Below, one piece after another: positions 1 through 53,939 of a DNA stretch of 64,000 nt. The stretch is from Eledone cirrhosa. Its lineage: Eukaryota. The position numbers were made by a program, and so were the translations under genes. Under the pieces are notes generated by a model that saw nothing but the letters and a program-made list of their open reading frames with translations, was not told the DNA's origin and did not search any database. The stretch lies in contig OZ024743.1 in NCBI GenBank assembly GCA_964016885.1, positions 254,944,001 through 255,008,000 on the forward strand, written 5' to 3'. Position 1 is the stretch's first letter. Every line of letters begins with the position of its first letter.

Positions 1-1905
1 GTGGGTGTTATTTTTAAAGAAAAGTAAAGTGGGTGTTTGGAAAAGTTATTGTTTAGACTAGACAAAGGTAGAGTGTGATACATATCTTCACAGCAATAGC
101 TTGGGAGCTTTGGAGCTTAGGCGAATCCCTTAGTACAGACATATATACCCACCCACAGTTTTATACTTCTGGATGCGCGTGTATGTCTATATACACATGT
201 GCACTCATACAAGAGAGTATATACAAATATACTCTTAAGCATACACTCGAACATTTATCAATCCAACCTGGGGTATTAGTATTACGTTGCGTTCACATGA
301 GTGTGTACATTCACGAAGTCCCAGTATACACACACAATGCACGGTTGCGGCCTCTCATTCATGCGTATAGGGTTAGTACCTTGGGATAATTGTTCTTCCT
401 TTGTGGGTCGCTCCCGGGGGGGGGGTTCCCTCAGGTTCAATAAAGCGTGGTTTTGATCACTCCTAACCAGTAAAGGATCCGGTGGACCATCCACCATAGG
501 GACCACAAACTATGGGTGGTTGTTGTTGTCCATTGGTCATTGGTACGGGGTGTAGGGGACTACAGGGGGGGGGCCTTAACCGGGGTTTATCCATATAGCT
601 TGAGGAAAGCTCACGTCCTTAGGTGTCTGCAGGCACCGAATAAGTCGGCCCTTCTGTTTAATAGCTTGGTTCCGCCATGAAGTATCTCGAGTGTCTCACT
701 AAGACAGAGGTTGCAAATACCAGACCCGCCTCTGTCTGGGGGAACCTTTCTAATCACGGACCAGACCAGATAGTGCGGGATCTTTTCAAGTTTGAGCTTC
801 CAGATCATTTCAGAAAGGGCCGTACATTTCCTCTTATCTATTCTGTTAAAGGAATGGCGATGGTTATACCACTTATCTTTGAATCTCGTCGCTGTGGATC
901 CTATGTAGTGGTGCTCCGAGTTAGGGGTTGTGACCTTGCACCTGTAGACTACGTTTTTCGTCATGCATTCATTACTAAGGGGGCAGAGTGATGGGTCTCT
1001 GCAATTACATGACTTCTTAAGCCCCACCACATGTACCGCGTGGTTACCATCACTCGGGGTTGGCTGGGTAGCTGCCGCAATCAGCACAGGGTCGTTGGGT
1101 TCCGGTGTGCTAGTTGGGCCTGTCCAAGGTCTGGTGCGTCCCGCGTGCTGGTTCAGTTGGGTGGCTCCGGGGTTTACGGTGGTATTAGAGGCAGTGAACC
1201 TATTCCTGTTTATGCCAGCTATGTGCTGGGCTACGGAGCGTGTGGTTGAGTAGGAAAGTTTCACCGTGTGCCTGTTGAATATTTTATGGTAGTTGTGGGC
1301 CCTAGGGAAAAATTTATCCAGTACTCTAAAGAATGTTCTAGCCAGGCTGGTACGTAGACCCGCCGAGTACAGAGGGTTATACCATGTGACCTTCCTGGTC
1401 CTATTCTTGCGGGGTTGTTGGGTGTCTGCCGTGGACCATCGCGTGGTTATGCACAGCTCAGGTCGAACTCGGTTGGTGTCACTCAGGTGTGCGGAGCGGT
1501 CACTATCATGAGGGTTATATGGGCCCACCGTGGGGCTATAAACCTGCGAGGTGCGGCCTCCCTGATCAATTAGGGTTCGGCGGGTGGTGGGGCCGGTGCA
1601 CGGGTGGCTATGCTCCGCAGCAGCGTTGTAGGTATTAGACCGGTGGTGGTGATGGATAGGGGTCTGGGATTGTTATAAATCGTCACCGAGGTATTAGGTG
1701 GGCAACTCATGCCCCTGAGGGTATTGGTCCGGGGTAACCTTGGGTAATCTCGATCATGTCTCTAGAGGGTTATAGCTCATTCTATGGCTGTGGGACGCCT
1801 TAGCTAGCGCTGAGTTATAGTAATCAGCATTACTATTGAAGATCTCTTTATTGGCCGACAAGTTAGAGATCCTGTCAGAGACACTCTTAACTAGGGCCTT
1901 AACTA
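1..1905 (-). mobile_element. Penelope-like retroelement (PLE), 5'-truncated: end of RT thumb, linker, GIY-YIG endonuclease, 3' UTR running off the window
   Basis: Minus-strand peptide [30 protein letters not shown] (1754-1900) resembles a PLE RT thumb, followed by the GIY-YIG ORF 611-1528; abuts (TA)n at ~1905. Confidence 0.85.
611..1528 (-). pseudogene. PLE GIY-YIG endonuclease region
   Basis: Motifs RKVTWYNPLYS, IFNRHTVKLSYS, CNCRDPSLCPLSNEC, VVYRCKV..YIGST..FK.KWYNH.HSF, LSEMIWKLK, CNLCLSE, LLNRR..CRH. Confidence 0.88.
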
Positions 1906-2585: not shown

Positions 2586-2947
2586 GGAGGTGAGTTTTAT
2601 TGTAGTACAATAAAGCAATGCAGATATCGGATAAGTAGCACTCTACAGTTTGTAGGACTGGAGTATAAATAATATAAGATCAAAAGATGGTTAAAAGAGT
2701 TCCATGTATTTTATTATGCGCATTTCAAAAATAAATATCATAATGAAATGACATTTGTGTTTTCGTCAGATAAAATAGGGAGATATGATATGTTGATTTA
2801 AAACTGCACTATTCACAAGTGTTTTTTAACCTTCATATCATGTCTCCCTATTTTATCTGACGAAAACGCAAATGTCATCTCATGATGATATTTGTTTTTG
2901 AAATGCGCATAATAAAATACATGGAACTCTTTTAACCATCTTTTGAT

Positions 2948-2952
<5 letters not shown>
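2582..2952 (-). mobile_element. Non-autonomous PLE-type hairpin element with HHR
   Basis: ~90 bp tail (2582-2670), then inverted arms ~2673-2792 / ~2833-2952; (TA)n on both sides. Confidence 0.75.
2849..2919 (+). ncRNA. Type I hammerhead ribozyme (mirror copy on - strand 2707-2777)
   Basis: tattttat CTGACGA [gcaaatgtcat..atgatatttgt] GAA ATGCGCAT A ataaaata: 8 bp stem I, canonical core, palindromic stem III. Confidence 0.85.
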
Positions 2953-7157: not shown

Positions 7158-7510
7158 GTGAGGTTTTTTTTACAAAATGAAAAATAACCGAGGTGTCCTA
7201 CACGAGTGGAAGTATAAAGAAAAAGGGATGAAATCGAAAATGCAACTGAAGTCTTATTTTTTTTTAAAATATATATATTTATTTGGTTCCTTTACCGGTT
7301 TCGCAGTTCTTCTGCTTTTCAAAAGGTGAGTTGAGATGGAGGGTCTGTGGTTTTTCTCAGATGTGAGAAAAACCACAGACCCTCCATCTCAACTCACCTT
7401 TTGAAAAGCAGAAGAACTGCGAAACCGGTAAAGGAACCAAATAAATATATATATTTTTTAAAAAAATAAGACTTCAGTTGCATTTTCGATTTCATCCCTT
7501 TTTCTTTATA
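7151..7510 (-). mobile_element. Non-autonomous PLE-type hairpin element with HHR
   Basis: ~60 bp tail, then a near-perfect ~150 bp-arm palindrome centred near 7361; same family at 61195-61516. Confidence 0.8.
7397..7434 (+). ncRNA. Minimal 38 nt hammerhead ribozyme, U3-A8 core variant
   Basis: cctt TTGAAAA gcag aagaa ctgc GAA ACCGGT A aagg. Confidence 0.8.
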
Positions 7511-9274: not shown

Positions 9275-12094
<2,820 letters not shown>

Positions 12095-12305
12095 TGACAA
12101 ATGAAAATAAAATTAAAAATAAAAGCAAAAACAAAAACCATAACCTACATAAAAATAACCACTACCACAGTCACCAACAGTCTTCTAAACAGGAAACTTC
12201 TTCCTCTTTTTTAGCCATAATGAATCTGGCAAAAGAACTGGAAAAAAACATTCGAGCTATCACCCAGCACCACCCTCCACTATCACTCCACTGCACAAAC
12301 TCCCA

Positions 12306-13757
12306 TTGCTGCCATTAACAAACAAACAAATTAACAACACACCAAAACAATTAAAACCATCCACTCTCGTCACTACATTTTTGCTTAACGCCCAAGGCAT
12401 CAGCCCTTCCACCAATACTCAAAAATGGAAGATCAAATTCCTGGAGGACTGGATTGATGTCCATCCAAACCACATCCCTTTCTTCGTCCTCACTGAAACC
12501 CATCTCAGTAACCTCCACTTGGAAGCCGAGGTGAAAGTGAAAAATTTCAAAGCCATCCGTGCTGATCGCGCTGGCAGAAGAAAGGGCGGAACTGCCATTT
12601 ATGTCCATAATTCTTTCTCAACAGAGGCTATGAACATATTCACTAATGGATACTGTGAAGCAGTCACTGTATTCAGTCAAACCAACAACCTAATAGTAGT
12701 TGGGCTCTATAGGCCACCCCAAACGCCTGTACCATGCTTCAAGGAATGCCTCAACAGCATAAAGTGTTTCATCCAAGAGTGTCACCCTGACAACATCTTA
12801 ATGATGGGGGACTTCAACCTCCCCGGAGTTGACTGGTCCACAAACAGCCTGCCACCAGGTTCTTCTGCCTCAACCTCTGACAGGGAAGCAGTGGAATCGC
12901 TTCTTGACTTCATGGATGATTTCTTCCTATCCCAACTGGTGCTCGAACCAACGAGGTGCCACAAAAACGTCATAGACTTAATTTTCAGCAATCACACTGA
13001 CAATATCCACAATATTGCAGTGGAGAAAACTCTACTCTCTGATCATGACATGGTTCTCTGTGATCTGAGATTCCACCGTCCAATATACAAACCCAATGTC
13101 ATCTCTCCTGTCCATCCGTTTGACGCTATGGATTTCCACAATGCAAACTGGGAAGCGATCAGTCATGATCTTGCACATGTCGACTGGTCCTTCACGCACA
13201 CTCATACACCCACTAACATCAAAAAGTCCTGGCAGACATTTGTGGACACTGTTACAAACATATGTGCTAAATACACCCCATTAAGAACTATAAACAAATC
13301 TAAGAGCAGAATCCCTAGAAATAGAAAAACGCTCATCAGAAAAATTAAGAGAACGAACAAAAAAATCAACAAGCTGAAATACCGTCAGCAGCAACACATC
13401 AACTTGACTGCCATTTCATCACTAGAGATTAAAAAACATAACCTCCAAAACAACATAATGTCCCTCATCAACAATCAGAGAAGAGCTGAAGAGGCCTGGG
13501 CCATTGAGAAGATCAAACTCAATCCCAAAGTGTTCTTTTCATTTGCAAAAAAACACAAAATTACTGGCTCTACTGTTGGCCCTCTAATTGATGAAAATGG
13601 CACTCTTCAAGACAATGCTAAAACCATGGGTGAGATACTGCAGAAACAATACTGCTCTGTTTTCAGCAATCCTGATATGGCCGATCTGGGCTGTATCGGC
13701 GATGTTACTCCCCATTACACCTTATCGGACATAACGTTTGGCGCCCTGATGTCTTAG
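12306..13757 (+). CDS. LINE ORF2 N-terminal part: apurinic-type endonuclease and linker (frameshift near 13745)
   Basis: LNAQG, LTETHL, DR..RKGGTAIYV, GLYRPP, MGDFNLP, EPTR..IDLIF, SDHDMV. Confidence 0.9.
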   Translation: MLPLTNKQINNTPKQLKPSTLVTTFLLNAQGISPSTNTQKWKIKFLEDWIDVHPNHIPFFVLTETHLSNLHLEAEVKVKNFKAIRADRAGRRKGGTAIYVHNSFSTEAMNIFTNGYCEAVTVFSQTNNLIVVGLYRPPQTPVPCFKECLNSIKCFIQECHPDNILMMGDFNLPGVDWSTNSLPPGSSASTSDREAVESLLDFMDDFFLSQLVLEPTRCHKNVIDLIFSNHTDNIHNIAVEKTLLSDHDMVLCDLRFHRPIYKPNVISPVHPFDAMDFHNANWEAISHDLAHVDWSFTHTHTPTNIKKSWQTFVDTVTNICAKYTPLRTINKSKSRIPRNRKTLIRKIKRTNKKINKLKYRQQQHINLTAISSLEIKKHNLQNNIMSLINNQRRAEEAWAIEKIKLNPKVFFSFAKKHKITGSTVGPLIDENGTLQDNAKTMGEILQKQYCSVFSNPDMADLGCIGDVTPHYTLSDITFGALMS

Positions 13758-13819
13758 CGGCAATAAAGGAAATCAAGCATAATTCAGCAGTAGGTCCCGA
13801 TAGGTTCCCTGCTTGTGTC

Positions 13820-15325
13820 TTGAAGGCGTGTCAACACCAACTTGCATCTCCTCTTGCCAATCTGTGGCGGAACTCACTGGATGCTGGATATGTGCCAGAA
13901 AACCTTCTATCCCAGTCTGTTGTCCCAGTTTTCAAAAAGGGAAACAAATCCCTTGCCGTGAATTACCGTCGAATCTCACTCACCTCTCATATCATTAAGG
14001 TATTTGAGAGAGTGGTGAGATCACGAATGACCCACTTCCTTGAGAGTAACAATATGCTGAACTCCAACCAGCATGGATTCCGTAATGGAAGAGATTGCCT
14101 GACGCAGCTACTGCATCACTTTGATGACATTTTGAGAGCCTTGGGAGAGGGTTCCAACACTGATGTTATCTACCTTGATTTCAGCAAGGCCTTTGACAGG
14201 GTTGATCATAACATTCTACTGAGAAAGCTGTCCAATATTGGTGTCACTGGAAAGCTGCTGCAGTGGATCAAGAGCTTCCTGTCAAACAGAACCCAACATG
14301 TTGTAGTTGAAGGAGTCAAATCCAACCCAGCCAAAGTCAGTAGTGGGGTCCCACAAGGCACTGTGTTGGGCCAACTTCTCTTCATCATCTATATTAATGA
14401 CATCACTGACATCATCAAACACAGCAACATTAAAATTTTCGCTGATGATTCCAAGCTCCAAAAGGTCATCATTGGCGTGGATGACCGGATAAGCCTTCAG
14501 TCAGACCTACTGGCTGTTACCCAATGGGCGGAAAAGAACAACATGTTACTGAACGAAGACAAATTCGAACTGATCCACTTTGGAAAAGAGGATGCTCTGA
14601 AACTCCCGTACTCCCTTCCCTCCGGGGAAACTCTCGTGGCATCTAACAACATCAGAGACTTGGGAGTAACCGTGGACAGCAACATAAGCTGGGCCACGCA
14701 TATAAGCAACAAAGTTGACATGGCCCGCAGAATGTGTTCCTGGATCCTCAGAACCTTCCAGTCGAGAGATTCCCACACCATTATCCTTCTCTTCTCTACT
14801 TTTGCCCGACCACACCTTGAATACTGTTGTCCACTGTGGTCTCCCCGCACGAAACAAAGTGTCATGAAACTTGAATCTCCTCAAAGGGCAATCACGAAAA
14901 AGATAGATGGCATGTCAGACCTTGACTACTGGGGTCGACTAGAAAACCTGAAACTTTACTCACTCCAACGTCGCTGTGAGCGTTATATTATCTGCATGAT
15001 GTGGAAAATGTTCCATCATCACTGCCCAAATGATGTTGGCATCGCCTTCAAGATACACCCAAGGCTTGGGCCCCGTGCTATCCGTCCCATACAAAAATCT
15101 AAATCGCAACTCGTAACAACAATACGGCACAATTATTTCACCTCAATCGGCCCTGCTCTCTTCAACATCACACCAGGACACGTCAAAACAGAAACTGACC
15201 ACACAAAATTCAAGAAGTCTTTGGACAAATTCCTCCAAGTAATCCCGGACAAACCACCCACACCCGGATATGTCTCCGCAAACAGTAATTCTCTTCTCGA
15301 ATGGGCCATGGTGCCCAAATCCTGA
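13820..15325 (+). CDS. LINE ORF2 C-terminal part: reverse transcriptase
   Basis: PVFKKG, NYR.ISLTS, QHGFR, YLDFSKAFD, SGVPQGTVLG, FADD, DLGV, RPHLEYC..WSP. Confidence 0.93.
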   Translation: MKACQHQLASPLANLWRNSLDAGYVPENLLSQSVVPVFKKGNKSLAVNYRRISLTSHIIKVFERVVRSRMTHFLESNNMLNSNQHGFRNGRDCLTQLLHHFDDILRALGEGSNTDVIYLDFSKAFDRVDHNILLRKLSNIGVTGKLLQWIKSFLSNRTQHVVVEGVKSNPAKVSSGVPQGTVLGQLLFIIYINDITDIIKHSNIKIFADDSKLQKVIIGVDDRISLQSDLLAVTQWAEKNNMLLNEDKFELIHFGKEDALKLPYSLPSGETLVASNNIRDLGVTVDSNISWATHISNKVDMARRMCSWILRTFQSRDSHTIILLFSTFARPHLEYCCPLWSPRTKQSVMKLESPQRAITKKIDGMSDLDYWGRLENLKLYSLQRRCERYIICMMWKMFHHHCPNDVGIAFKIHPRLGPRAIRPIQKSKSQLVTTIRHNYFTSIGPALFNITPGHVKTETDHTKFKKSLDKFLQVIPDKPPTPGYVSANSNSLLEWAMVPKS

Positions 15326-19048: not shown

Positions 19049-19115
<67 letters not shown>

Positions 19116-19154
19116 TATACATATATATATATATATTTATATATTCATATATTC

Positions 19155-19189
<35 letters not shown>

Positions 19190-19207
19190 TATTTGTATAT
19201 GCATATA

Positions 19208-19269
<62 letters not shown>

Positions 19270-19293
19270 TACATATATATTTATGCATATACA

Positions 19294-19328
<35 letters not shown>

Positions 19329-19330
19329 GA

Positions 19331-19421
<91 letters not shown>

Positions 19422-19533
19422 TAGAATATTCGAAAATATTCTGTATGTTTATAATAAACATTTTGAAGACCTAATCGCTATAGAATAGAATACGTCACGT
19501 ATTACAATTAGATTCTCGATAAAAGCAAGGGAA

Positions 19534-19576
19534 GTAATCTACGCGTTTCATTCTTGTTAGAAATCATCAGGACTAC
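19534..19576 (-). ncRNA. Minimal type I hammerhead ribozyme (first of 7 minus-strand copies, one every 310 bp)
   Basis: Reverse complement reads gtagtc CTGATGA tttctaacaagaat GAA ACGCGT A gattac. Confidence 0.85.
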
Positions 19577-21827
19577 ATATCCAGTGCTTTTATCGAGAAT
19601 GACACAGCTAGAGACTTATAGAATACTTAGCTGTGTACAGGAACTGGTTTGAAAGAGCGGTTGCCGGTCCGGCAGAAATTAGAAATTGGAATAAATGCTC
19701 TGAAATAGCGATATATATGTGAATATAGACATAGAATATTCGAAAATATTCTGTATGTTTATAATAAACATTTTGAAGACCTAATCGCTATAGAATAGAA
19801 TACGTCACGTATTACAATTAGATTCTCGATAAAAGCAAGGGAAGTAATCTACGCGTTTCATTCTTGTTAGAAATCATCAGGACTACATATCCAGTGCTTT
19901 TATCGAGAATGACACAGCTAGAGACTTATAGAATACTTAGCTGTGTACAGGAACTGGTTTGAAAGAGCGGTTGCCGGTCCGGCAGAAATTAGAAATTGGA
20001 ATAAATGCTCTGAAATAGCGATATATATGTGAATATAGACATCGAATGTTCGAAAATATTCTGTATGTTTATAATAAACATTTTGAAGACCTAATCGCTA
20101 TAGAATAGAATACGTCACGTATTACAATTAGATTCTCGATAAAAGCAAGGGAAGTAATCTACGCGTTTCATTCTTGTTAGAAATCATCAGGACTACATAT
20201 CCAGTGCTTTTATCGAGAATGACACAGCTAGAGACTTATAGAATACTTAGCTGTGTACAGGAACTGGTTTGAAAGAGCGGTTGCCGGTCCGGCAGAAATT
20301 AGAAATTGGAATAAATGCTCTGAAATAGCGATATATATGTGAATATAGACATAGAATATTCGAAAATATTCTGTATGTTTATAATAAACATTTTGAAGAC
20401 CTAATCGCTATAGAATAGAATACGTCACGTATTACAATTAGATTCTCGATAAAAGCAAGGGAAGTAATCTACGCGTTTCATTCTTGTTAGAAATCATCAG
20501 GACTACATATCCAGTGCTTTTATCGAGAATGACACAGCTAGAGACTTATAGAATACTTAGCTGTGTACAGGAACTGGTTTGAAAGAGCGGTTGCCGGTCC
20601 GGCAGAAATTAGAAATTGGAATAAATGCTCTGAAATAGCGATATATATGTGAATATAGACATAGAATATTCGAAAATATTCTGTATGTTTATAATAAACA
20701 TTTTGAAGACCTAATCGCTATAGAATAGAATACGTCACGTATTACAATTAGATTCTCGATAAAAGCAAGGGAAGTAATCTACGCGTTTCATTCTTGTTAG
20801 AAATCATCAGGACTACATATCCAGTGCTTTTATCGAGAATGACACAGCTAGAGACTTATAGAATACTTAGCTGTGTACAGGAACTGGTTTGAAAGAGCGG
20901 TTGCCGGTCCGGCAGAAATTAGAAATTGGAATAAATGCTCTGAAATAGCGATATATATGTGAATATAGACATAGAATATTCGAAAATATTCTGTATGTTT
21001 ATAATAAACATTTTGAAGACCTAATCGCTATAGAATAGAATACGTCACGTATTACAATTAGATTCTCGATAAAAGCAAGGGAAGTAATCTACGCGTTTCA
21101 TTCTTGTTAGAAATCATCAGGACTACATATCCAGTGCTTTTATCGAGAATGACACAGCTAGAGACTTATAGAATACTTAGCTGTGTACAGGAACTGGTTT
21201 GAAAGAGCGGTTGCCGGTCCGGCAGAAATTAGAAATTGGAATAAATGCTCTGAAATAGCGATATATATGTGAATATAGACATAGAATATTCGAAAATATT
21301 CTGTATGTTTATAATAAACATTTTGAAGACCTAATCGCTATAGAATAGAATACGTCACGTATTACAATTAGATTCTCGATAAAAGCAAGGGAAGTAATCT
21401 ACGCGTTTCATTCTTGTTAGAAATCATCAGGACTACATATCCAGTGTTTTATCGAGAATGACACAGCTAGAGACTTATAGAATACTTAGCTGTGTACAGG
21501 AACTGGTTTGAAAGAGCGGTTGCCGGTCCGGCAGAAATTAGAAATTGGAATAAATGCTCTGAAATAGCGATATATATGTGAATATATTGTAATACGTGAC
21601 GTATTCTATTCTATAGCGATTAGGTCTTCAAAATGTTTATTATAAACATACAGAATATTTTCGAATATTCTATGTCTATATTCACATATATATCGCTATT
21701 TCAGAGCATTTATTCCAATTTCTAATTTCTGCCGGACCGGCAACCGCTCTTTCAAACCAGTTCCTGTACACAGCTAAGTATTCTATAAGTCTCTAGCTGT
21801 GTCATTCTCGATAAAAGCACTGGATAT

Positions 21828-21870
21828 GTAGTCCTGATGATTTCTAACAAGAATGAAACGCGTAGATTAC
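21828..21870 (+). ncRNA. Minimal type I hammerhead ribozyme (first of 7 plus-strand copies)
   Basis: gtagtc CTGATGA t ttc taacaa gaa t GAA ACGCGT A gattac; flanked by a 16 bp helix attctcgataaaagca / tgcttttatcgagaat. Confidence 0.87.
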
Positions 21871-23881
21871 TTCCCTTGCTTTTATCGAGAATCTAATTGT
21901 AATACGTGACGTATTCTATTCTATAGCGATTAGGTCTTCAAAATGTTTATTATAAACATACAGAATATTTTCGAATATTCTATGTCTATATTCACATATA
22001 TATCGCTATTTCAGAGCATTTATTCCAATTTCTAATTTCTGCCGGACCGGCAACCGCTCTTTCAAACCAGTTCCTGTACACAGCTAAGTATTCTATAAGT
22101 CTCTAGCTGTGTCATTCTCGATAAAAGCACTGGATATGTAGTCCTGATGATTTCTAACAAGAATGAAACGCGTAGATTACTTCCCTTGCTTTTATCGAGA
22201 ATCTAATTGTAATACGTGACGTATTCTATTCTATAGCGATTAGGTCTTCAAAATGTTTATTATAAACATACAGAATATTTTCGAATATTCTATGTCTATA
22301 TTCACATATATATCGCTATTTCAGAGCATTTATTCCAATTTCTAATTTCTGCCGGACCGGCAACCGCTCTTTCAAACCAGTTCCTGTACACAGCTAAGTA
22401 TTCTATAAGTCTCTAGCTGTGTCATTCTCGATAAAAGCACTGGATATGTAGTCCTGATGATTTCTAACAAGAATGAAACGCGTAGATTACTTCCCTTGCT
22501 TTTATCGAGAATCTAATTGTAATACGTGACGTATTCTATTCTATAGCGATTAGGTCTTCAAAATGTTTATTATAAACATACAGAATATTTTCGAATATTC
22601 TATGTCTATATTCACATATATATCGCTATTTCAGAGCATTTATTCCAATTTCTAATTTCTGCCGGACCGGCAACCGCTCTTTCAAACCAGTTCCTGTACA
22701 CAGCTAAGTATTCTATAAGTCTCTAGCTGTGTCATTCTCGATAAAAGCACTGGATATGTAGTCCTGATGATTTCTAACAAGAATGAAACGCGTAGATTAC
22801 TTCCCTTGCTTTTATCGAGAATCTAATTGTAATACGTGACGTATTCTATTCTATAGCGATTAGGTCTTCAAAATGTTTATTATAAACATACAGAATATTT
22901 TCGAATATTCTATGTCTATATTCACATATATATCGCTATTTCAGAGCATTTATTCCAATTTCTAATTTCTGCCGGACCGGCAACCGCTCTTTCAAACCAG
23001 TTCTGTACACAGCTAAGTATTCTATAAGTCTCTAGCTGTGTCATTCTCGATAAAAGCACTGGATATGTAGTCCTGATGATTTCTAACAAGAATGAAACGC
23101 GTAGATTACTTCCCTTGCTTTTATCGAGAACCTAATTGTAATACGTGACGTATTCTATTCTATAGCGATTAGGTCTTCAAAATGTTTATTATAAACATAC
23201 AGAATATTTTCGAATATTCTATGTCTATATTCACATATATATCGCTATTTCAGAGCATTTATTCCAATTTCTAATTTCTGCCGGACCGGCAACCGCTCTT
23301 TCAAACCAGTTCCTGTACACAGCTAAGTATTCTATAAGTCTCTAGCTGTGTCATTCTCGATAAAAGCACTGGATATGTAGTCCTGATGATTTCTAACAAG
23401 AATAAAACGCGTAGATTACTTCCCTTGCTTTTATCGAGAACTAATTGTAATACGTGACGTATTCTATTCTATAGCGATTAGGTCTTCAAAATGTTTATTA
23501 TAAACATACAGAATATTTTCGAATATTCTATGTCTATATTCACATATATATCGCTATTTCAGAGCATTTATTCCAATTTCTAATTTCTGCCGGACCGGCA
23601 ACCGCTCTTTCAAACCAGTTCCTGTACACAGCTAAGTATTCTATAAGTCTCTAGCTGTGTCATTCTCGATAAAAGCACTGGATATGTAGTCCTGATGATT
23701 TCTAACAAGAATGAAACGCGTAGATTACTTCCCTTGCTTTTATCGAGAATCTAATTGTAATACGTGACGTATTCTATTCTATAGCGATTAGGTCTTCAAA
23801 ATGTTTATTATAAACATACAGAATATTTTCGAATATTCTATGTCTATATTCACATATATATCGCTATTTCAGAGCATTTAT

Positions 23882-23928
<47 letters not shown>

Positions 23929-28170: not shown

Positions 28171-28700
28171 TTTTGAGTATATGTTGGTTGTATAACAACA
28201 CCTCAGTATGCAAGTTGGAGCTTTCCACGAAGTGCGCAGGTTGGTTTGGTTACTCCAGATTAATGTAAAATAAAATAAAATAAATAAGTCAAATGTTTAA
28301 AATTTAGCTTCGTTTATTACTGCTATATATATATTTCGGTGACAGCCATCTTTGACTGTGACCTCTTCAGGCACTCCGAATTGGTGTGGTGAAGACACGT
28401 ACATATGTTGTTGAGGTGTATAATTCTGTCAATACTCTGATATGCCCAGTTCCTGGTTGGGTTGTTATTTCACTGAGGAAATATGATTCCAGTTCCTCAG
28501 TGAAATAACAACACAACCATGTACTGGGCATGTCAGAGTATTGACAAAATTATACACCTCAACAACATTTGTACTTGTCTGTACCACACTAATTTGGACT
28601 GCCTGGAGAGGTCTCAGCTAAAGATGGCTGACCTCAAAATATATATAGAAGTAATAAACGAAGCTAAATTTTAAACATTTGACTTATTTATTTTATCTTA

Positions 28701-28781: not shown

Positions 28782-29593
28782 TATATATGTTTGCATATAT
28801 ATTTATATATGCATATATATATATGCATATATATAATGCGGCGATGAATTAGTTTAGCGAGGTTTTTTATATAAAATCGTGTGTCGAAACAGATATTTTT
28901 ATACTTGGGGAGGGTCATATTTGCGTAATATTGCCAGAATTAATAACACAACACACTCACTGTTTGGTTGGTTTTCGCTTCTCGCTGTCTTTTATATCTG
29001 CGATCTAACTTACTCGGTCCTGAATATTGCCATTGACTGACCGACGGTCAAAAATAATACAGATACAATATAGACACAAACACATATATATATAGTTTAC
29101 ATAATTTACATAAATCTTTCGTTGCACATCTGCAACATCGTCAGTGGTGTTATATTCTTTGTTCCTCCTGTTGTGTTGTATGTCTACGCCATTTTTTATT
29201 CAGTCTGTCTATATATTTATTTATTTATTTGCTTGTTTGTTTATCTTATTTTATTTTGTCTTCTTTGCGCATGCGTTTGCGTGTGTGTATAGTGTTATGT
29301 GTGCTGTGTGACTAGTGTGTATAGTGTTGTGTCTGCTGGGTGACTAGTGTGTGTTTATGTGCTTGTTGTTATTGTGCTTGTGTATGTATTTATTTATCTT
29401 ATTTTATTTTATTTTATTTATTTACTTATTTATACTTCTCTCAGGTCAGTGTTGTTTGTTTGGGTGTTGTTGTTGTTCTACTCATTCTTTCTGTTTAGCT
29501 TTGGTCTTCTAATTTCTATTTCACTGACCTCTTTGATTCGTCTATCGGCTGGGTCATTCCTATGTTTAGATATTATTCTAATTTCTATGTTGT

Positions 29594-30880
29594 CTATGTT
29601 ACCGTCATGTTGTTGTCTTGCATGTTCGTATAGTACTGACTCGTTTTTCGTCCTTTTAGTTCCCCCCAGTGTTGGTCTATCCTTTCACCTATGCTACGAG
29701 CTGTCTCACCTATGTATGTTGTTGTCATGTTTCTGCAAGTACCCTCTGTACATCTTATGCTATAGATTACGTTTCTAGTTTTACAGATTATCCGGTGGTT
29801 CACCTTACATATGATACATTTCCTATTGGTACAGTGGGTTTTCTTAAAAGGGTAGGTTTTGCTGATCAGGAATTTTATGGTGGTTCCTGGCTTTTCTACC
29901 ACCTTTATTTTTAAGTGGGTCTTTCTCAGGGCCTTTCTACACTGGTTAGCTAATTTCCCTCCAGGGGTGGCGTCCACAAACATGACACTCTGATATCTCT
30001 GGTTATCGAACCATGATGTGGCCTTCCCTATCTTATGTCTAGTCCTATCTAAGCTATTCCATGATTTGCTCCTGTATAGTGGGCAAATTCCTTTCATGTC
30101 CAGTTCTATGAGGGTCTTATACTTTTCCATGGCTCCTTCGTATACTCTGACTCTGTCTCTTTGGTTGTAGCCAGAGAACTGCATGCGGTTGATGAAGTGT
30201 TGGATGTGTCTTTCTATTTCTGTTGGGTCGCACATGCTGGACACATTCTTCATCACTCGTACCAAATCTGCGATCAGAATATTAAACTTAGCACTACTGG
30301 ACATTGCTGAGTTTTTGTGTATCAGGTATTTGGAGGCCATGGGTTTAGCATAGTGTGAGTGGAGAATTTGGGCTCTCTCGTCTATAGTGTTAATCCAGAG
30401 TTCTGTGTCTAATACAGGTAGTCTATTGTTAGGGTGTTTGGAAGGGAAGTCGATAGTTACAGTTATACTCTGGTGTATGGAATTAGCTATCTGCTGGATG
30501 CTTTCCATCGTGCTACGTTCTAAATCAAACTTGTTAGTGCTCTCTAGTGGGGCTGTTCTTATAACTATATTGATATCGTCTACATAACGAGAGTACATGA
30601 TGAGGTCTATGGAGCTTTCATTAAGGAGATCTTTAAGTCTCCTTTCCCACCATACCATGAAAAGGTTGGCAACATCACCAACTATGCTGACGCCGATGGC
30701 TGCTCCCTCATTTTGGGTGTAGATTTTCTCATTGAACTTAAATATGTGGCCCTTTAGGGTAGTTTTGATACTAGCCCCTATTGCATGTGCGACCATTTTT
30801 CTTACCTGATCAGTGTTTTGGGGGGTCCGTATAGCATTGGTCCACCCAATCCACCTTCCTATGGGAGTCCTTTTTGCCAT
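29594..30880 (-). pseudogene. PLE RT palm/thumb + GIY-YIG
   Basis: YTQNEGAAIG, YSRYVDD, LPVLD, HYAKP, FVDATPG, C..C..C..C, NVIYSIRC, YIGETARS..ER..QH. Confidence 0.92.
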
Positions 30881-31340
30881 TGAGACAATGGTGGGGGGGT
30901 CTACCTCTTATAGGTCTACTAGGGCAGAAACATCTAAGGTCATGGCTGTCTAGGTAGTCAGTGTCGTAGGTAAGTCTAAGTAGGAGGCCCAGTTCGTCTG
31001 TGTCGACGTCGCAGAACTCCACCTCACTCTCAATGATCATCTCCACACATCTTTTCACAGCAAAATCAATGTTAATGGATGGGTACAGTGACACCACATC
31101 CATGCTGCCTATTATGCAGTTGGATAGGCTCATGTTTTTGTTGCACTCACTGATTCTGCTGAGGAGGTCCTCTGTACTTTCACATACATCTGGGGACATC
31201 TTGATTATGGGGCGTATAACCATTGAGAGGAAGTAGGAGATCCTGTAGTTGCTAGCTATATTAGCTCCGCATACGGGTCTTGTTGGTGGTCCTGTTGTCG
31301 GGTCGTCGACTGTCTTGTGGTCTTTGCGGAGCCCATACAA
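30810..31340 (-). pseudogene. PLE RT N-terminal motifs (frameshifted)
   Basis: YGLRKDHK..PTRPVCG, STEDLL, IGSMDVVSLYPSI. Confidence 0.9.
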
Positions 31341-32199
31341 GAAAGTTGTTGGCAGTGCGTCTGCTTGGCTTTAGGATGTCAGTCCACATCATCATGTGAG
31401 CGTTGAGGATTTTTTCTCTCCCATCGTGTGTGTGTTGTGCAACTTCGCTCGTGTTGATGATGTGGGGTTGCATAGCCTCGATGTAGTTCGGCATGCTATC
31501 TATTGACATGCTACCAGACTTATCTGTGGGTAGACACACTACCTCACCATCTCTTGTGCGCTGCTTGAGGCTAACCAAGCCTTCTACAGGTTTTCTCCCA
31601 AGTTGTTGGCTCTCTGGTCTGCTCTGTCTCTTAGTATACCTGTCTACTACTTGTCTAATCTTATTTCTAGCTATGGTGAACTGTGCCGCCGTCTCGTCAT
31701 CTATTTGCTGTGGTATGCAAACTCTTTTATTAAAGGGTAACCTCGTAGGATAGATATTACCCATCTTATATGTTTTGTCAGCTGGGTTGAAAAATAGTTT
31801 CTCTAAGGGGTTGTCATTATATCTATCGTCATAGTTGTGTATGTTGCTATTGTTGTTATCAGGGTGGTTGTTGTTGTTTCTATCATTAGCATTATTATTA
31901 TTGTTATGATTGCTAGATGTATTGTTGTTTACTTCACCGTTATTGTTGTTGTTGTTACTGTTATTTCTACCATTGTGGTTGTTACTATTATTATGTTTCT
32001 TGTTTTTGTTGATGTTGCTACATGTACTATTTCCATTATTACCACTGTGGTTATTGTTGTTGTTGTTCGTATTGTTACCGTTATTACTACTGTGGTCACT
32101 GTTGCTGTGTCTGTGGTTAACGTTTCTATTATTATTATTATTGTGGTTGTTGTTGTTCCGTCTATCGCTAGTATTATTGCCATTATCACTATTTCTCAC
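31261..32199 (-). pseudogene. PLE N-terminal region with Asn-rich tract
   Basis: PTRLPFNKRV..P, GLVSLK.R..GEVVCLPTDKSG (typical PLE pre-RT motif), preceded by a poly-Asn low-complexity segment. Confidence 0.8.
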
Positions 32200-32546
32200 T
32201 TTCCTGCCATTGTTATGGTTATGGCTGTTATTTCTATACCCAGAGTTATTGTTTATATTACTACTACCGTTATTATTGTTGTTGTCGTTTACCTTTGCAT
32301 TCCAACGTATTCCAGAGGACCGAGTAAGTTAGATCGCAGATATAAAAGACAGCGAGAAGCGAAAACCAACCAAACAGTGAGTGTGTTCTGTTATTAATTC
32401 TGGCAATATTACGCACATATATATATATATACATATATATATATATGCATATATATATATATATATATGCATATATATATATATATGCATATATATATGT
32501 GTATATATATATATATGCATATATATATGCATATATATATATATAT

Positions 32547-33755
32547 TGGAAAATGTGTGTAATCCTTGGTACAGTTAGGTGTATTAAGACAGGGGGGAAG
32601 AAAAAACTGGCTTCACTTGCGCTTTCAACAAATTTATTTTCTTCACAAAATCTAAAAAGAATTTTTTTCCGGATTAGAAAAAATTTTTTCTTAAAAAAAT
32701 AATTTTATAAATTAAGTTGTTGGTTGTTGGTTAGGTCTTAGGAGTTCTTGGTTAACGTAGGAGGTATTGTTTCGTTTTTAGAACGACCTTTCACGCTGAG
32801 GTGCGCTTGTCAAACTGATGTGTATGTAGTGTGTTGTTCTATATATAGGGATTTAATATGTCTGTGGTGTGGTGGTTTTTTTTTCTCCCCCTTTAATAAG
32901 TGTAGGGGGGTAGGTGTGTTGAAAAAGTGTTAATAGCAGTAATGAGTTGAGACGGTGAGTAGGGTTAGGTGGGGAGTAATGTAGCAAGTGCGGCCTGCCT
33001 CGGTCATTCTCGAAAAATTCCTTTATTCAGGGGAAAAAGCTTTTAGTATTCCTTTGTGTTGAGAATGGTCATAGGCAAACCGCACCTGCCAAGTTTGAAA
33101 ACAATTATTTTTTTCTGAAGAATTTTTCTACGTCCATCCCAAAATTAGTCCTTTGTTCAACACACACATATATGTGCGTATATACGTACATACACATACG
33201 GGCATATGTAGGAATATATAGGCACACACCATCAATCACACACCCATGTACATATACATCCACATACATGACCATTCTCAACACAAAAGAATACTAAAAG
33301 CTTTTTCCCCTGAATAAAGGAATTTTTCGAGAATGACCGGGGCAGGCCGCACCTGCTACTCTTCTCCCCACCCAACCCTATTCACCGTCTCAACTCATTA
33401 CTGCTATTAACACTTTTTCAACACACCTACACCCCTACACTTATTAAAGGGGGAGAAAAAACCCCCCACCACACCACAGACATGTTAAATCCCTATATAT
33501 AGAACAACACACCACATACACATCAGTTTGACAAGCGCACCTCAGCGTGAAAGGTCGTTCTAAAAACGAAACAATACTTCCTACGTTAACCAAGAACTCC
33601 TAAGACCTAACCAACAACCAACAACTTAATTTATAAAATAATTTTTTTTAAGAAAAAATTTTTTCTAATCCGGAAAAAAATTCTTTTTGGATTTTGTGAA
33701 GAAAATAAATTTGTTGAAAGCACAAGTGAAGCCATTTTTTTCTTCCCCCCCTGTC

Positions 33756-33760
<5 letters not shown>
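32547..33760 (-). mobile_element. Hairpin element with ~490 bp inverted arms, in (TA)n
   Basis: ~35 bp tail; arms ~32582-33072 / ~33268-33760; no HHR confidently resolved; strand inferred from tail position. Confidence 0.75.
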
Positions 33761-53108: not shown

Positions 53109-53939
53109 TTCTATGAAGAAAGGATAGGGCTGTCGCCAAGCGGTGGTTCATTTATCTAAATATAGTATGTGTTTTTGTATATCTAGCGATATATGTTATA
53201 TTTATAAATAAACATCTTGAAAACCTTCAGCTATGAATTTGGAAACTAATGGCATAGTGCCATCTTGCAGAGCAGCAGCTAATGGTGGGTAACTAATGGC
53301 AAGGATGTCACCAATTCTGACTCCAGGCATTATCAAGCCAGTGCATTTTACCCTGCTGACTGCTGGAGCTCAATATAGGCAAAAGCATATAGTTTAGAAA
53401 CCTATGTAGATGGGCTGATTAACCTCATTTGCATATAGAGCTATCAGCTGGCTCAACCAGAAAGTAAAATTAAGGTATCAGCTCTAACATAACTCTGTAT
53501 GCGTTTTCGTACATCTAGCTATATGCAGTATGTTTATAAATAAACATTTTGAAAACTTTCAGAAATGGTAACATGATTGTCATCAGTTAGCCACACTAAG
53601 CTTCTGCTGGAATCTGTTAGATGATACTACCCCCATCAGTTTCCAAATTCATAGCTGAAGGCTTTTGAAAGGTCATGAATTTTGGGTAATGACTGAAAGA
53701 ATACGATCAAAAATACAGGTGACTGAAATGGAGTTTCTCTGAAGGGTTTCAACCAATGCATAGCTCAGAGATTAGAGAGTCACCCTAGGTAGAGCCACTA
53801 CTTCTCTGAATTAAGAGATCACAGCTCTCATACTACGGCCATGTGATTAAAATATCTCAGGAAAGAATTGCTGGACAGATTTTATGGGCAAAACCAACCT
53901 GAAGGAGACCTGTGTGTAGAGCTCAAGCAAGATGGTAGA

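What the first reader, a model, noticed from the sequence alone, without database searches (positions are those of the whole stretch)
19416..23887. 4.5 kb palindromic concatemer of a 310 nt hammerhead RNA (retrozyme/circRNA-like)
Seen: 7 head-to-tail 310 bp units, an abrupt inversion at ~21586, then ~7.4 reverse units. Units are almost identical and each has a minimal type I HHR (14 in total; one has GAAA>AAAA near 23404). There is no ORF, and both flanks are (TA)n. Known: non-LTR retrozymes are short tandem HHR repeats that yield circular RNAs and are thought to use PLE machinery. Inference: this is a single recent integration of rolling-circle reverse-transcribed circRNA that then folded back like the neighbouring PLEs. 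The right end runs ~40 nt beyond the left end, matching the tail rule. Transcription from either side would give self-cleaving 310 nt monomers, and read-through would give ~2.2 kb of dsRNA.
Basis: partly seen in the sequence, partly recalled or inferred. Interest (0 to 1): 0.88.

Follow-up and report, generated by a model that had tools for sequence, protein, structure and literature searches.

The report
Two-armed hammerhead retrozyme with Penelope ends
This is one of well over a thousand young insertions of a 310-base non-coding repeat that carries a predicted self-cutting RNA motif, and its two outward-pointing arms, fixed outer ends and shared sequence variants suggest that a Penelope-type jumping-gene enzyme copied one RNA, most likely a small circle, from both sides of a DNA break.

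Summary
Real. 19413-23887 holds 7.0 + 7.4 units of 310 nt, head-to-head, 14 type I hammerhead motifs, no ORF, in (TA)n. It is one of about 1,200-1,600 dispersed insertions (about 14,700 units). Of 93 arrays sampled, 76 are simple two-armed; all 76 point outward and pair one end at unit position ~165 with one at ~130-139, the Penelope 'tail' left by two reverse-transcription starts. Both arms carry the same array-wide haplotype in 59 of 62 (8 by chance); 35 haplotypes in 79 arrays. Inner ends do not pile up at the cleavage site, unlike a linear Penelope element here (19 of 30). Not a fold-back: the short-end arm is over a unit longer in 22 of 76. Best reading: a non-LTR retrozyme written by Penelope-type twin priming on one RNA, mostly a monomer circle; three arrays show multimer templates. 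Expression, cleavage, circles and the partner enzyme are unshown. The class and the Penelope link are published; this insertion-level footprint was not in the papers searched. The scan noted this family before on other DNA of this genome (six notes).

The parts
19049..19412 (.). Left target: degenerate (TA)n tract
19413..21586 (-). Left arm, 7.01 units, hammerhead sense pointing left; outer (3') end at unit position 127 = short 'B' end; inner (5') end at 123
21586..21586 (.). Inversion junction, unit position 123 joined to 32, 1-nt overlap; not a symmetric hairpin
21586..23887 (+). Right arm, 7.43 units, hammerhead sense pointing right; inner end at 32; outer end at 165 = long 'A' end
21865..22174 (+). 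Reference monomer from predicted cleavage site to cleavage site (310 nt, 34% G+C); circular fold -67.8 kcal/mol, z -4.6
21828..21870 (+). Type I hammerhead motif (first of 7 on +; others end at 22180, 22490, 22800, 23109, 23419, 23728); predicted cut after 21864; two copies fold in silico into the double hammerhead
21394..21436 (-). Type I hammerhead motif (innermost of 7 on -; others start at 21084, 20774, 20464, 20154, 19844, 19534)
23377..23419 (+). Hammerhead with core mutation GAAA>AAAA at 23404, predicted inactive
23801..23838 (+). Two hairpins (unit 79-116) just upstream of the short end, kept with compensatory changes in two older sister families; candidate recognition element for the reverse transcriptase (inferred)
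23850..23887 (+). 'Tail': unit 128-165, present only at the long end
23888..23923 (.). Right target: (TA)n

Best explanation
This array is one insertion of a non-coding hammerhead repeat (non-LTR retrozyme) that was likely written into a (TA)n tract by a borrowed Penelope-type reverse transcriptase-endonuclease, which likely primed twice, once from each target strand, on one RNA that was likely a 310-nt circle in most insertions. Steps: (1) arrays are transcribed [inferred; each unit has CCAAT and TATA-like words at 161 and 230, untested]; (2) multimers would cut as double hammerheads and monomers would be ligated to circles, which cannot cut alone because helix III is 1 bp [folding predicted; chemistry known for newt and axolotl, PMC7229834]; (3) the enzyme nicks both strands of (TA)n and starts at two fixed internal sites, ~165 and ~130-139 [ends shown; enzyme inferred from PMC11167929]; (4) each enzyme runs for 0.2 to 45 units through the cleavage site and stops at any position [shown]; (5) the two cDNA ends are joined by microhomology or short filler [shown in excess of chance], giving head-to-head arms. 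A minority of insertions used a multimeric RNA [shown for 3 arrays].
For: Dispersed family: 4,584 exact core matches, 0 in the reversed control; 652 forward long ends, 1,242 short ends. Geometry: 76 of 76 simple two-armed arrays are head-to-head with one long and one short end, including 9 of 9 picked by the hammerhead core alone and 12 of 12 picked because the long-end pattern missed them. 146 of 152 outer ends abut TA runs. Two internal starts spaced by the tail, AT-rich cutting and extension of both strands are shown in vitro for an anole Penelope-like element (PMC11167929). Intact Penelope-like elements in this genome have the same build (L151: 1,210-aa frame, head-to-head, 47-nt tail). 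One template: same haplotype in both arms in 59 of 62, shuffled mean 8.2, maximum 19 in 20,000. Monomer bottleneck: 35 haplotypes in 79 arrays; 17 arrays carry a variant in every unit that no other sampled array has, in up to 24 of 24 units. No fixed 5' end: inner ends are even over the unit (chi-square p 0.18), 2 of 152 within 5 nt of the cut site against 4.9 expected; a linear Penelope element here stops 1-7 nt above its hammerhead core in 19 of 30 against at most 16 of 152 in any 12-nt window for this unit (p 3e-9). RNA passage: array-wide changes are A>G 16, T>C 4 on the hammerhead strand, against 8 and 18 for single-unit changes (p 0.001); none of 34 array-wide variants hits the 12 core positions (about 1.7 expected, not significant alone).
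Against: No RNA, cleavage or circle was observed. L070, L144 and L093 share a single-unit variant or a haplotype switch in both arms at the same unit counted from the outer end, which a monomer circle cannot give; the two longest arrays show mosaics and 7- or 27-unit periods. The partner element was not found: no autonomous element among 114 Penelope-like loci compared shares the initiation region; one family shares only 26 of 28 nt of the hammerhead core and has a 68-nt tail. 15 of 93 arrays show one arm only (2 cut by N gaps, 2 with a tiny second arm). All sampled arrays except the window lie on contig C1, and 80 of 90 stretches were picked by an end pattern. The A>G excess may be selection for G-U pairs rather than editing. 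The 19-of-30 control counts only arms that hold the core.
Confidence: 0.6

Rival explanations
1. Same Penelope-type twin priming, but the template is usually a long, uncut linear multimer transcribed from an existing array; circles play little part.
For: End-anchored shared heterogeneity in L070, L144, L093; mosaics in L037 and the 45-unit arm; hammerhead cleavage was dispensable for the anole element in vitro (PMC11167929); 8 of 9 Xenopus retrozyme dimers did not cleave (10.64898/2026.07.22.740005).
Against: A linear-only route cannot fix a new variant in every unit or make a daughter longer than its parent; 17 arrays with private array-wide variants against 3 with inherited heterogeneity; no pile-up of inner ends at any transcript start or cut site.
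Confidence: 0.25
2. The enzyme jumps repeatedly from the 5' end of a cleaved linear monomer to the 3' end of the same or another monomer, building concatemers without a covalent circle.
For: Template switching occurs: a 272-nt piece of another retrotransposon sits in sense at the L037 junction; L062 switches haplotype in one arm.
Against: 838 unit junctions keep the cut-site motif with almost no indels there; only 2 of 152 arms end at the cut site; switches between haplotypes are rare although 35 coexist.
Confidence: 0.07
3. A short two-armed pseudo-LTR remnant inserted first and grew locally by unequal crossover, as proposed in the 2026 preprint for retrozymes.
For: 7- and 27-unit periods in two long arrays may be local duplications.
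Against: Opposite arms share private variants in all units; 29 of 77 arrays of 3 or more units have no internal variant at all and the rest about 6e-4 per base; over a thousand sites would each have had to expand in both arms within a very short time.
Confidence: 0.04
4. One rolling-circle cDNA folded back and copied itself.
For: This locus looks nearly symmetric (7.0 and 7.4 units); junction microhomology is enriched and two junctions sit in the unit's 16-bp stem.
Against: The short-end arm is longer in 36 of 76, by more than a unit in 22; L093 and L144 variants are in register from the outer ends, not from the junction.
Confidence: 0.03
5. Assembly artefact (chimeric or fold-back long reads) on a conventional satellite.
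For: No listed contig of the short-read sample bridges this very junction (listing cut, sample may be another individual).
Against: Unique flanks, private haplotypes and fixed end pairs at 93 sites; short-read contigs of sample S2 show 15 other inversion joints and long and short ends joined to TA.
Confidence: 0.01

Closest known systems
Metazoan non-LTR retrozymes (Cervera and de la Pena 2020, PMC7229834; passages and parts 2-4 of 6 read, supplement not seen)
   Same: 150-450 bp tandem units, type I hammerhead in each, low G+C, no ORF, weak palindromic helix III as in axolotl HHR_Amex1, U-U at the base of helix II as in HHR_Amex2; circle-templated tandem cDNA by Penelope enzymes is proposed there.
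   Different: That paper shows circles but no insertion anatomy; 'inverted' does not occur in its main text. Here the two arms, two fixed ends and shared haplotypes are counted, but no RNA is seen.
Retrozymes as derivatives of Penelope pseudo-LTRs (Li, Clavereau, Pollet 2026, 10.64898/2026.07.22.740005; parts 1-3 of 5 read, supplements not seen)
   Same: Non-autonomous partners of Penelope-like elements; similar unit length.
   Different: It rests on co-occurrence and pseudo-LTR homology and proposes local satellite growth. Here arrays appear to arrive multi-unit, and no homologous pseudo-LTR was found.
Penelope-like elements: tail and inverted 5'-truncated copy (Craig et al. 2021, PMC8557442, passages; Frangieh et al. 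2024, PMC11167929, parts 1-2 of 4)
   Same: 30-40 nt tail at one end, inverted truncated copy, (TA)n or AT-rich targets, two internal starts, both strands extended; non-autonomous Chlamys elements with multicopy head-to-tail insertions are mentioned.
   Different: No ORF; arms are concatemers of up to 45 units with no 5' limit; Chlamys elements lack canonical hammerheads.
L1 twin priming (recalled; only a search listing seen)
   Same: Two target-primed cDNAs on one RNA joined by microhomology, 3' ends outward.
   Different: In L1 the two parts do not overlap and the second start is not fixed; here both arms copy the same sequence many times from two fixed starts.

Membership tests
Metazoan non-LTR retrozyme | Type I hammerhead in every tandem unit | tested here: met
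   14 of 14 motifs, 13 with intact core; pairing kept by array-wide variants; below the Rfam cut-off
Metazoan non-LTR retrozyme | Tandem units of 150-450 bp, G+C under 50%, no ORF, no LTR | tested here: met
   310 nt, 34% G+C, longest frame 59 aa
Metazoan non-LTR retrozyme | Dispersed, many copies, Penelope-like elements in the same genome | tested here: met
Metazoan non-LTR retrozyme | Self-cleavage (as a dimer) | not testable with these tools
   Only the predicted double-hammerhead fold, -22.3 kcal/mol
Metazoan non-LTR retrozyme | Expressed as linear and circular monomer RNA | not testable with these tools
   No run on record as RNA was offered
Metazoan non-LTR retrozyme | Target-site duplication longer than 4 bp, when present | tested here: inconclusive
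   20 of 76 arrays against 10 in shuffles (maximum 17 in 30); clear in L034 (15 nt); hidden in pure (TA)n at this locus
Non-autonomous Penelope-like element | 30-40 nt tail at one end (two fixed starts) | tested here: met
   76 of 76; modes 165 and 130/139
Non-autonomous Penelope-like element | Inverted, 5'-truncated second copy | tested here: met
   78 of 93 arrays have both orientations, none tail-to-tail
Non-autonomous Penelope-like element | AT-rich or (TA)n target | tested here: met
   146 of 152 ends; partly by selection, but also in the 11 arrays picked by the core
Non-autonomous Penelope-like element | Homology to the pseudo-LTR of an autonomous element | tested here: inconclusive
   None over the initiation region in 114 loci of about eight families, a small sample; only the hammerhead core matches the L330 family
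min-HHR of Penelope elements (PMC4209133, passages) | No helix III/loop 3, helix II of 7-8 bp, helix I of 4-5 bp | tested here: not met
   6-bp helix I, 4-bp helix II, 1-bp helix III with palindromic loop: canonical-like type I
Conventional satellite DNA | Few long arrays, ends at any position | tested here: not met
   Mean 9.2 units per array, fixed outer ends

The most novel reading that the evidence does not exclude
These arrays are direct DNA prints of rolling-circle reverse transcription in an animal germ line: a Penelope dimer loads on one 310-nt ribozyme circle, two reverse transcriptases start 35 nt apart from the two strands of a (TA)n break and chase each other round the circle, so that each insertion clones one RNA molecule, its A-to-I edits included. 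More than a thousand insertions would then be a sequenced population of a viroid-like RNA evolving under selection on its fold.
Probability: 0.55. Interest if true: 0.82.

Novelty: new variant of a known kind. Interest (0 to 1): 0.66.

Why it matters
How animal hammerhead repeats spread has been proposed (circle plus Penelope enzyme) but, in the papers read, not shown, and the steps of Penelope integration after priming are stated to be unvalidated. This family gives a 310-nt substrate with mapped start sites, a conserved structure beside them and hundreds of very young insertions, so twin priming on one RNA and rolling on a circle become directly testable in vitro and in pedigrees. It also explains the tail-plus-inversion of Penelope elements by one rule, and argues against local satellite growth as the origin of these arrays.

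Tried and rejected
DNA search of the own genome with the unit returned nothing, not even the window (common words are skipped); patterns were used instead. Rfam at gathering score: none. No RNA holder listed. Runs X1, X3, X6 each hold one 340-nt contig (310 + 30) at depth 10-15: this is what a circle or a trace of the tandem DNA would give, run type unknown, so no evidence on circles. The window's own junction was not among the listed contigs of sample S2. Exact 27-nt pattern: 0 in metagenome and 0 in viral contigs. Partner hunt: P0002 family, GIY-YIG hits, P0001 family, 20 long-frame loci, 60 loci of two sister families, core-sharing family, junction insert: no partner. Pfam found nothing in the 1,210-aa L151 frame, NCBIfam and PDB nothing significant; its class rests on the YVDD and GIY-YIG-like motifs read from the sequence (recalled) and its build. 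In one search my fifth pair of helix 1 fell on a gap column and is void. Rejected: fold-back, assembly chimera, plain satellite, coding function.
Full report
Observation. The array is as described: left arm 19413-21586 (7.01 units, minus), right arm 21586-23887 (7.43 units, plus), 310-nt unit, 14 hammerhead motifs, one with G>A at 23404, no frame above 59 aa, (TA)n on both sides. Unit positions are counted from the predicted cut (1 = 21865). The centre joins position 123 to 32, so it is not a hairpin. The motif has the full core, a 6-bp helix I, a 4-bp helix II over U-U and a 1-bp helix III with loop CGCG; it lies at the tip of a 16-bp stem (z -5.6). Rfam does not call it (HH9 E 0.075). Two copies fold in silico into the double hammerhead, the form in which the newt and axolotl motifs work (PMC4209133 passages; PMC7229834 part 3).

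Family. The 3.0-Gb genome holds 4,584 exact copies of a 32-nt core, 652 forward matches to the long end plus TA (the reverse count is doubled by the gap) and 1,242 to the short end. In my sample 262 of 838 units carry the exact core, which scales to about 14,700 units, about 1,600 arrays at 9.2 units each (extrapolated from contig C1). I analysed 90 stretches: the window, 9 picked by the core, 60 by the long end (first new places listed), 20 by the short end where the long-end list had no match. They hold 93 arrays: 76 simple two-armed, 2 complex, 15 one-armed; of the latter 2 run into N gaps and 2 show a second arm of about 10 nt.

Geometry. All 76 are head-to-head, and all 76 pair one end at 155-172 (165 in 54) with one at 118-139 (130 in 37, 139 in 22), also in the 9 and the 12 not picked by the long end. 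146 of 152 ends abut TA. This is the Penelope footprint: a 30-40 nt tail at one end and an inverted truncated copy (PMC8557442 passages), which PMC11167929 traces to two internal start sites and extension of both target strands. Coding Penelope-like elements here are built alike: window 9276-11473 and 28850-32420 and L151, with a 1,210-aa frame and a 47-nt tail. Junction overlaps average 2.2 nt against 0.77 by chance in 46 joins without filler; 30 have filler. Target duplications appear in 20 of 76 against 10 in shuffles. Short-read contigs of sample S2 show 15 other inversion joints and both end types joined to TA, so the build is not a long-read artefact; this locus's own joint was not among those listed.

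One template, not fold-back. Where both arms exceed a unit, they share the haplotype in 59 of 62 (shuffle mean 8.2, maximum 19). The short-end arm is longer in 36 of 76, by over a unit in 22, which self-copying of the long arm cannot give. In L093 (17.7 and 3.0 units) both arms carry one haplotype for two units from the outer end and then another; L144 and L070 share a single-unit change in the first lap of both arms. Both primings therefore used the same unit of the same molecule.

Circle or line. For a circle: 35 haplotypes in 79 arrays, 34 array-wide variants, 19 private to one array, in up to 24 of 24 units; such fixation needs a one-unit bottleneck followed by amplification. Inner ends are even over the unit (p 0.18), 2 of 152 near the cut site; the only mild cluster (16 of 152, p 0.04) is at the 16-bp stem. 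As a control, a coding family that shares the hammerhead core and has CCAAT and TATA words above it stops 1-7 nt above the core in 19 of 30 loci, as expected at the 5' end of a linear RNA. Array-wide changes are biased to A>G on the hammerhead strand (16 against 4 T>C by a spanning tree; single-unit changes 8 against 18; p 0.001; by distinct sites 10 against 4, p 0.04), 8 of 10 sites in predicted stems: A-to-I editing or tolerance of G-U pairs, either way strand-specific. Against a circle as the sole route: the three arrays above need multimers (11 of 67 testable calls shared, in 4 arrays), and two long arrays show 7- and 27-unit periods. I put twin priming on one RNA by a Penelope-type enzyme at about 0.9 and the circle as main template at about 0.65.

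Recognition element and relatives. Two older sister families exist: about 317-320 nt (4,435 motif matches) and about 342 nt (67 matches; also window 53.2-53.6 kb). They end at the homologous long and short sites and keep two hairpins at unit 79-116 with changes on both sides in 4 pairs (96% of cells paired, 20-53% when slid; 23 sequences, three lineages, so few independent events). The partner element was not found in 114 Penelope-like loci.

What is known. Retrozymes, their circles and the Penelope proposal: PMC7229834. Pseudo-LTR origin and local expansion: 10.64898/2026.07.22.740005. Seven searches listed no paper on two-armed retrozyme insertions or shared haplotypes; most subscription papers are outside the library, and the supplements of these papers (for example the life-cycle figure S9 of PMC7229834) were not seen. 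Earlier notes of this scan reach the same reading for this 310-nt family and for 422- and 467-nt families; they are not independent evidence. My reading was recorded before that look-up; the editing test was prompted by one of them. Their 'cephalopod' label was not checked.

Verdict. Real; a member of the non-LTR retrozymes on every feature that DNA can test, with an insertion anatomy that makes the proposed mechanism testable. New variant of a known kind, interest 0.66.

Noticed in passing
window 9276-11473 and 28850-32420: Head-to-head insertions of an abundant young Penelope-like family with a hammerhead in the pseudo-LTR; intact copies elsewhere have frames of 1,200 aa with an Asn-rich insert (L151) that Pfam does not recognise.
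   Followed up: partly
window 1-1900: Fragment of a second Penelope-like family (C-terminal GIY-YIG-like domain), tens of thousands of candidates, copies 86-95% identical.
   Followed up: partly
window 53160-53660: Decayed member of the oldest sister family (about 342 nt); relatives carry an octamer-like word ATGCAAAT upstream of a degenerate hammerhead.
   Followed up: partly
L158-L187: Sister family of 317-320 nt, mostly one or two units per arm, hammerhead core often degenerate (UUGAUAA): short arrays where the ribozyme has decayed would fit loss of circle formation.
   Followed up: partly
L298-L334: Penelope-like family with CCAAT and TATA words 30 nt above a hammerhead whose helix II is nearly identical to this unit's; 8,816 core matches; 68-nt tail; arms stop at the likely transcription start.
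   Followed up: partly
L037:2899-3170: 272 nt of another retrotransposon (PHD-finger-like and RT frames; copies clustered on contig C25, 19-24 Mb) captured in sense at an inversion junction.
   Followed up: yes
L075/L155 and L035/L036: A 45-unit arm with linked 81G>A and 84T>A in 9 units and a partial 27-unit period; a 308-nt variant array with a 7-unit period.
   Followed up: partly
L045:700-3400: Another two-armed hammerhead array with a period of about 484-494 nt lies beside a 310-nt array.
   Followed up: no
window 12189-15325: LINE with AP endonuclease and RT in two overlapping frames.
   Followed up: no
window 2600-2950, 7200-7500, 28180-28700, 32550-33760: Several short head-to-head insertions in (TA)n, some with hammerhead-like cores: further Penelope-type remnants.
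   Followed up: no
runs X1, X3, X6: Three runs labelled as other organisms, from three studies, each hold one clean 340-nt cyclic contig of the unit at depth 10-15; trace DNA is the simplest reading, run type unknown.
   Followed up: partly
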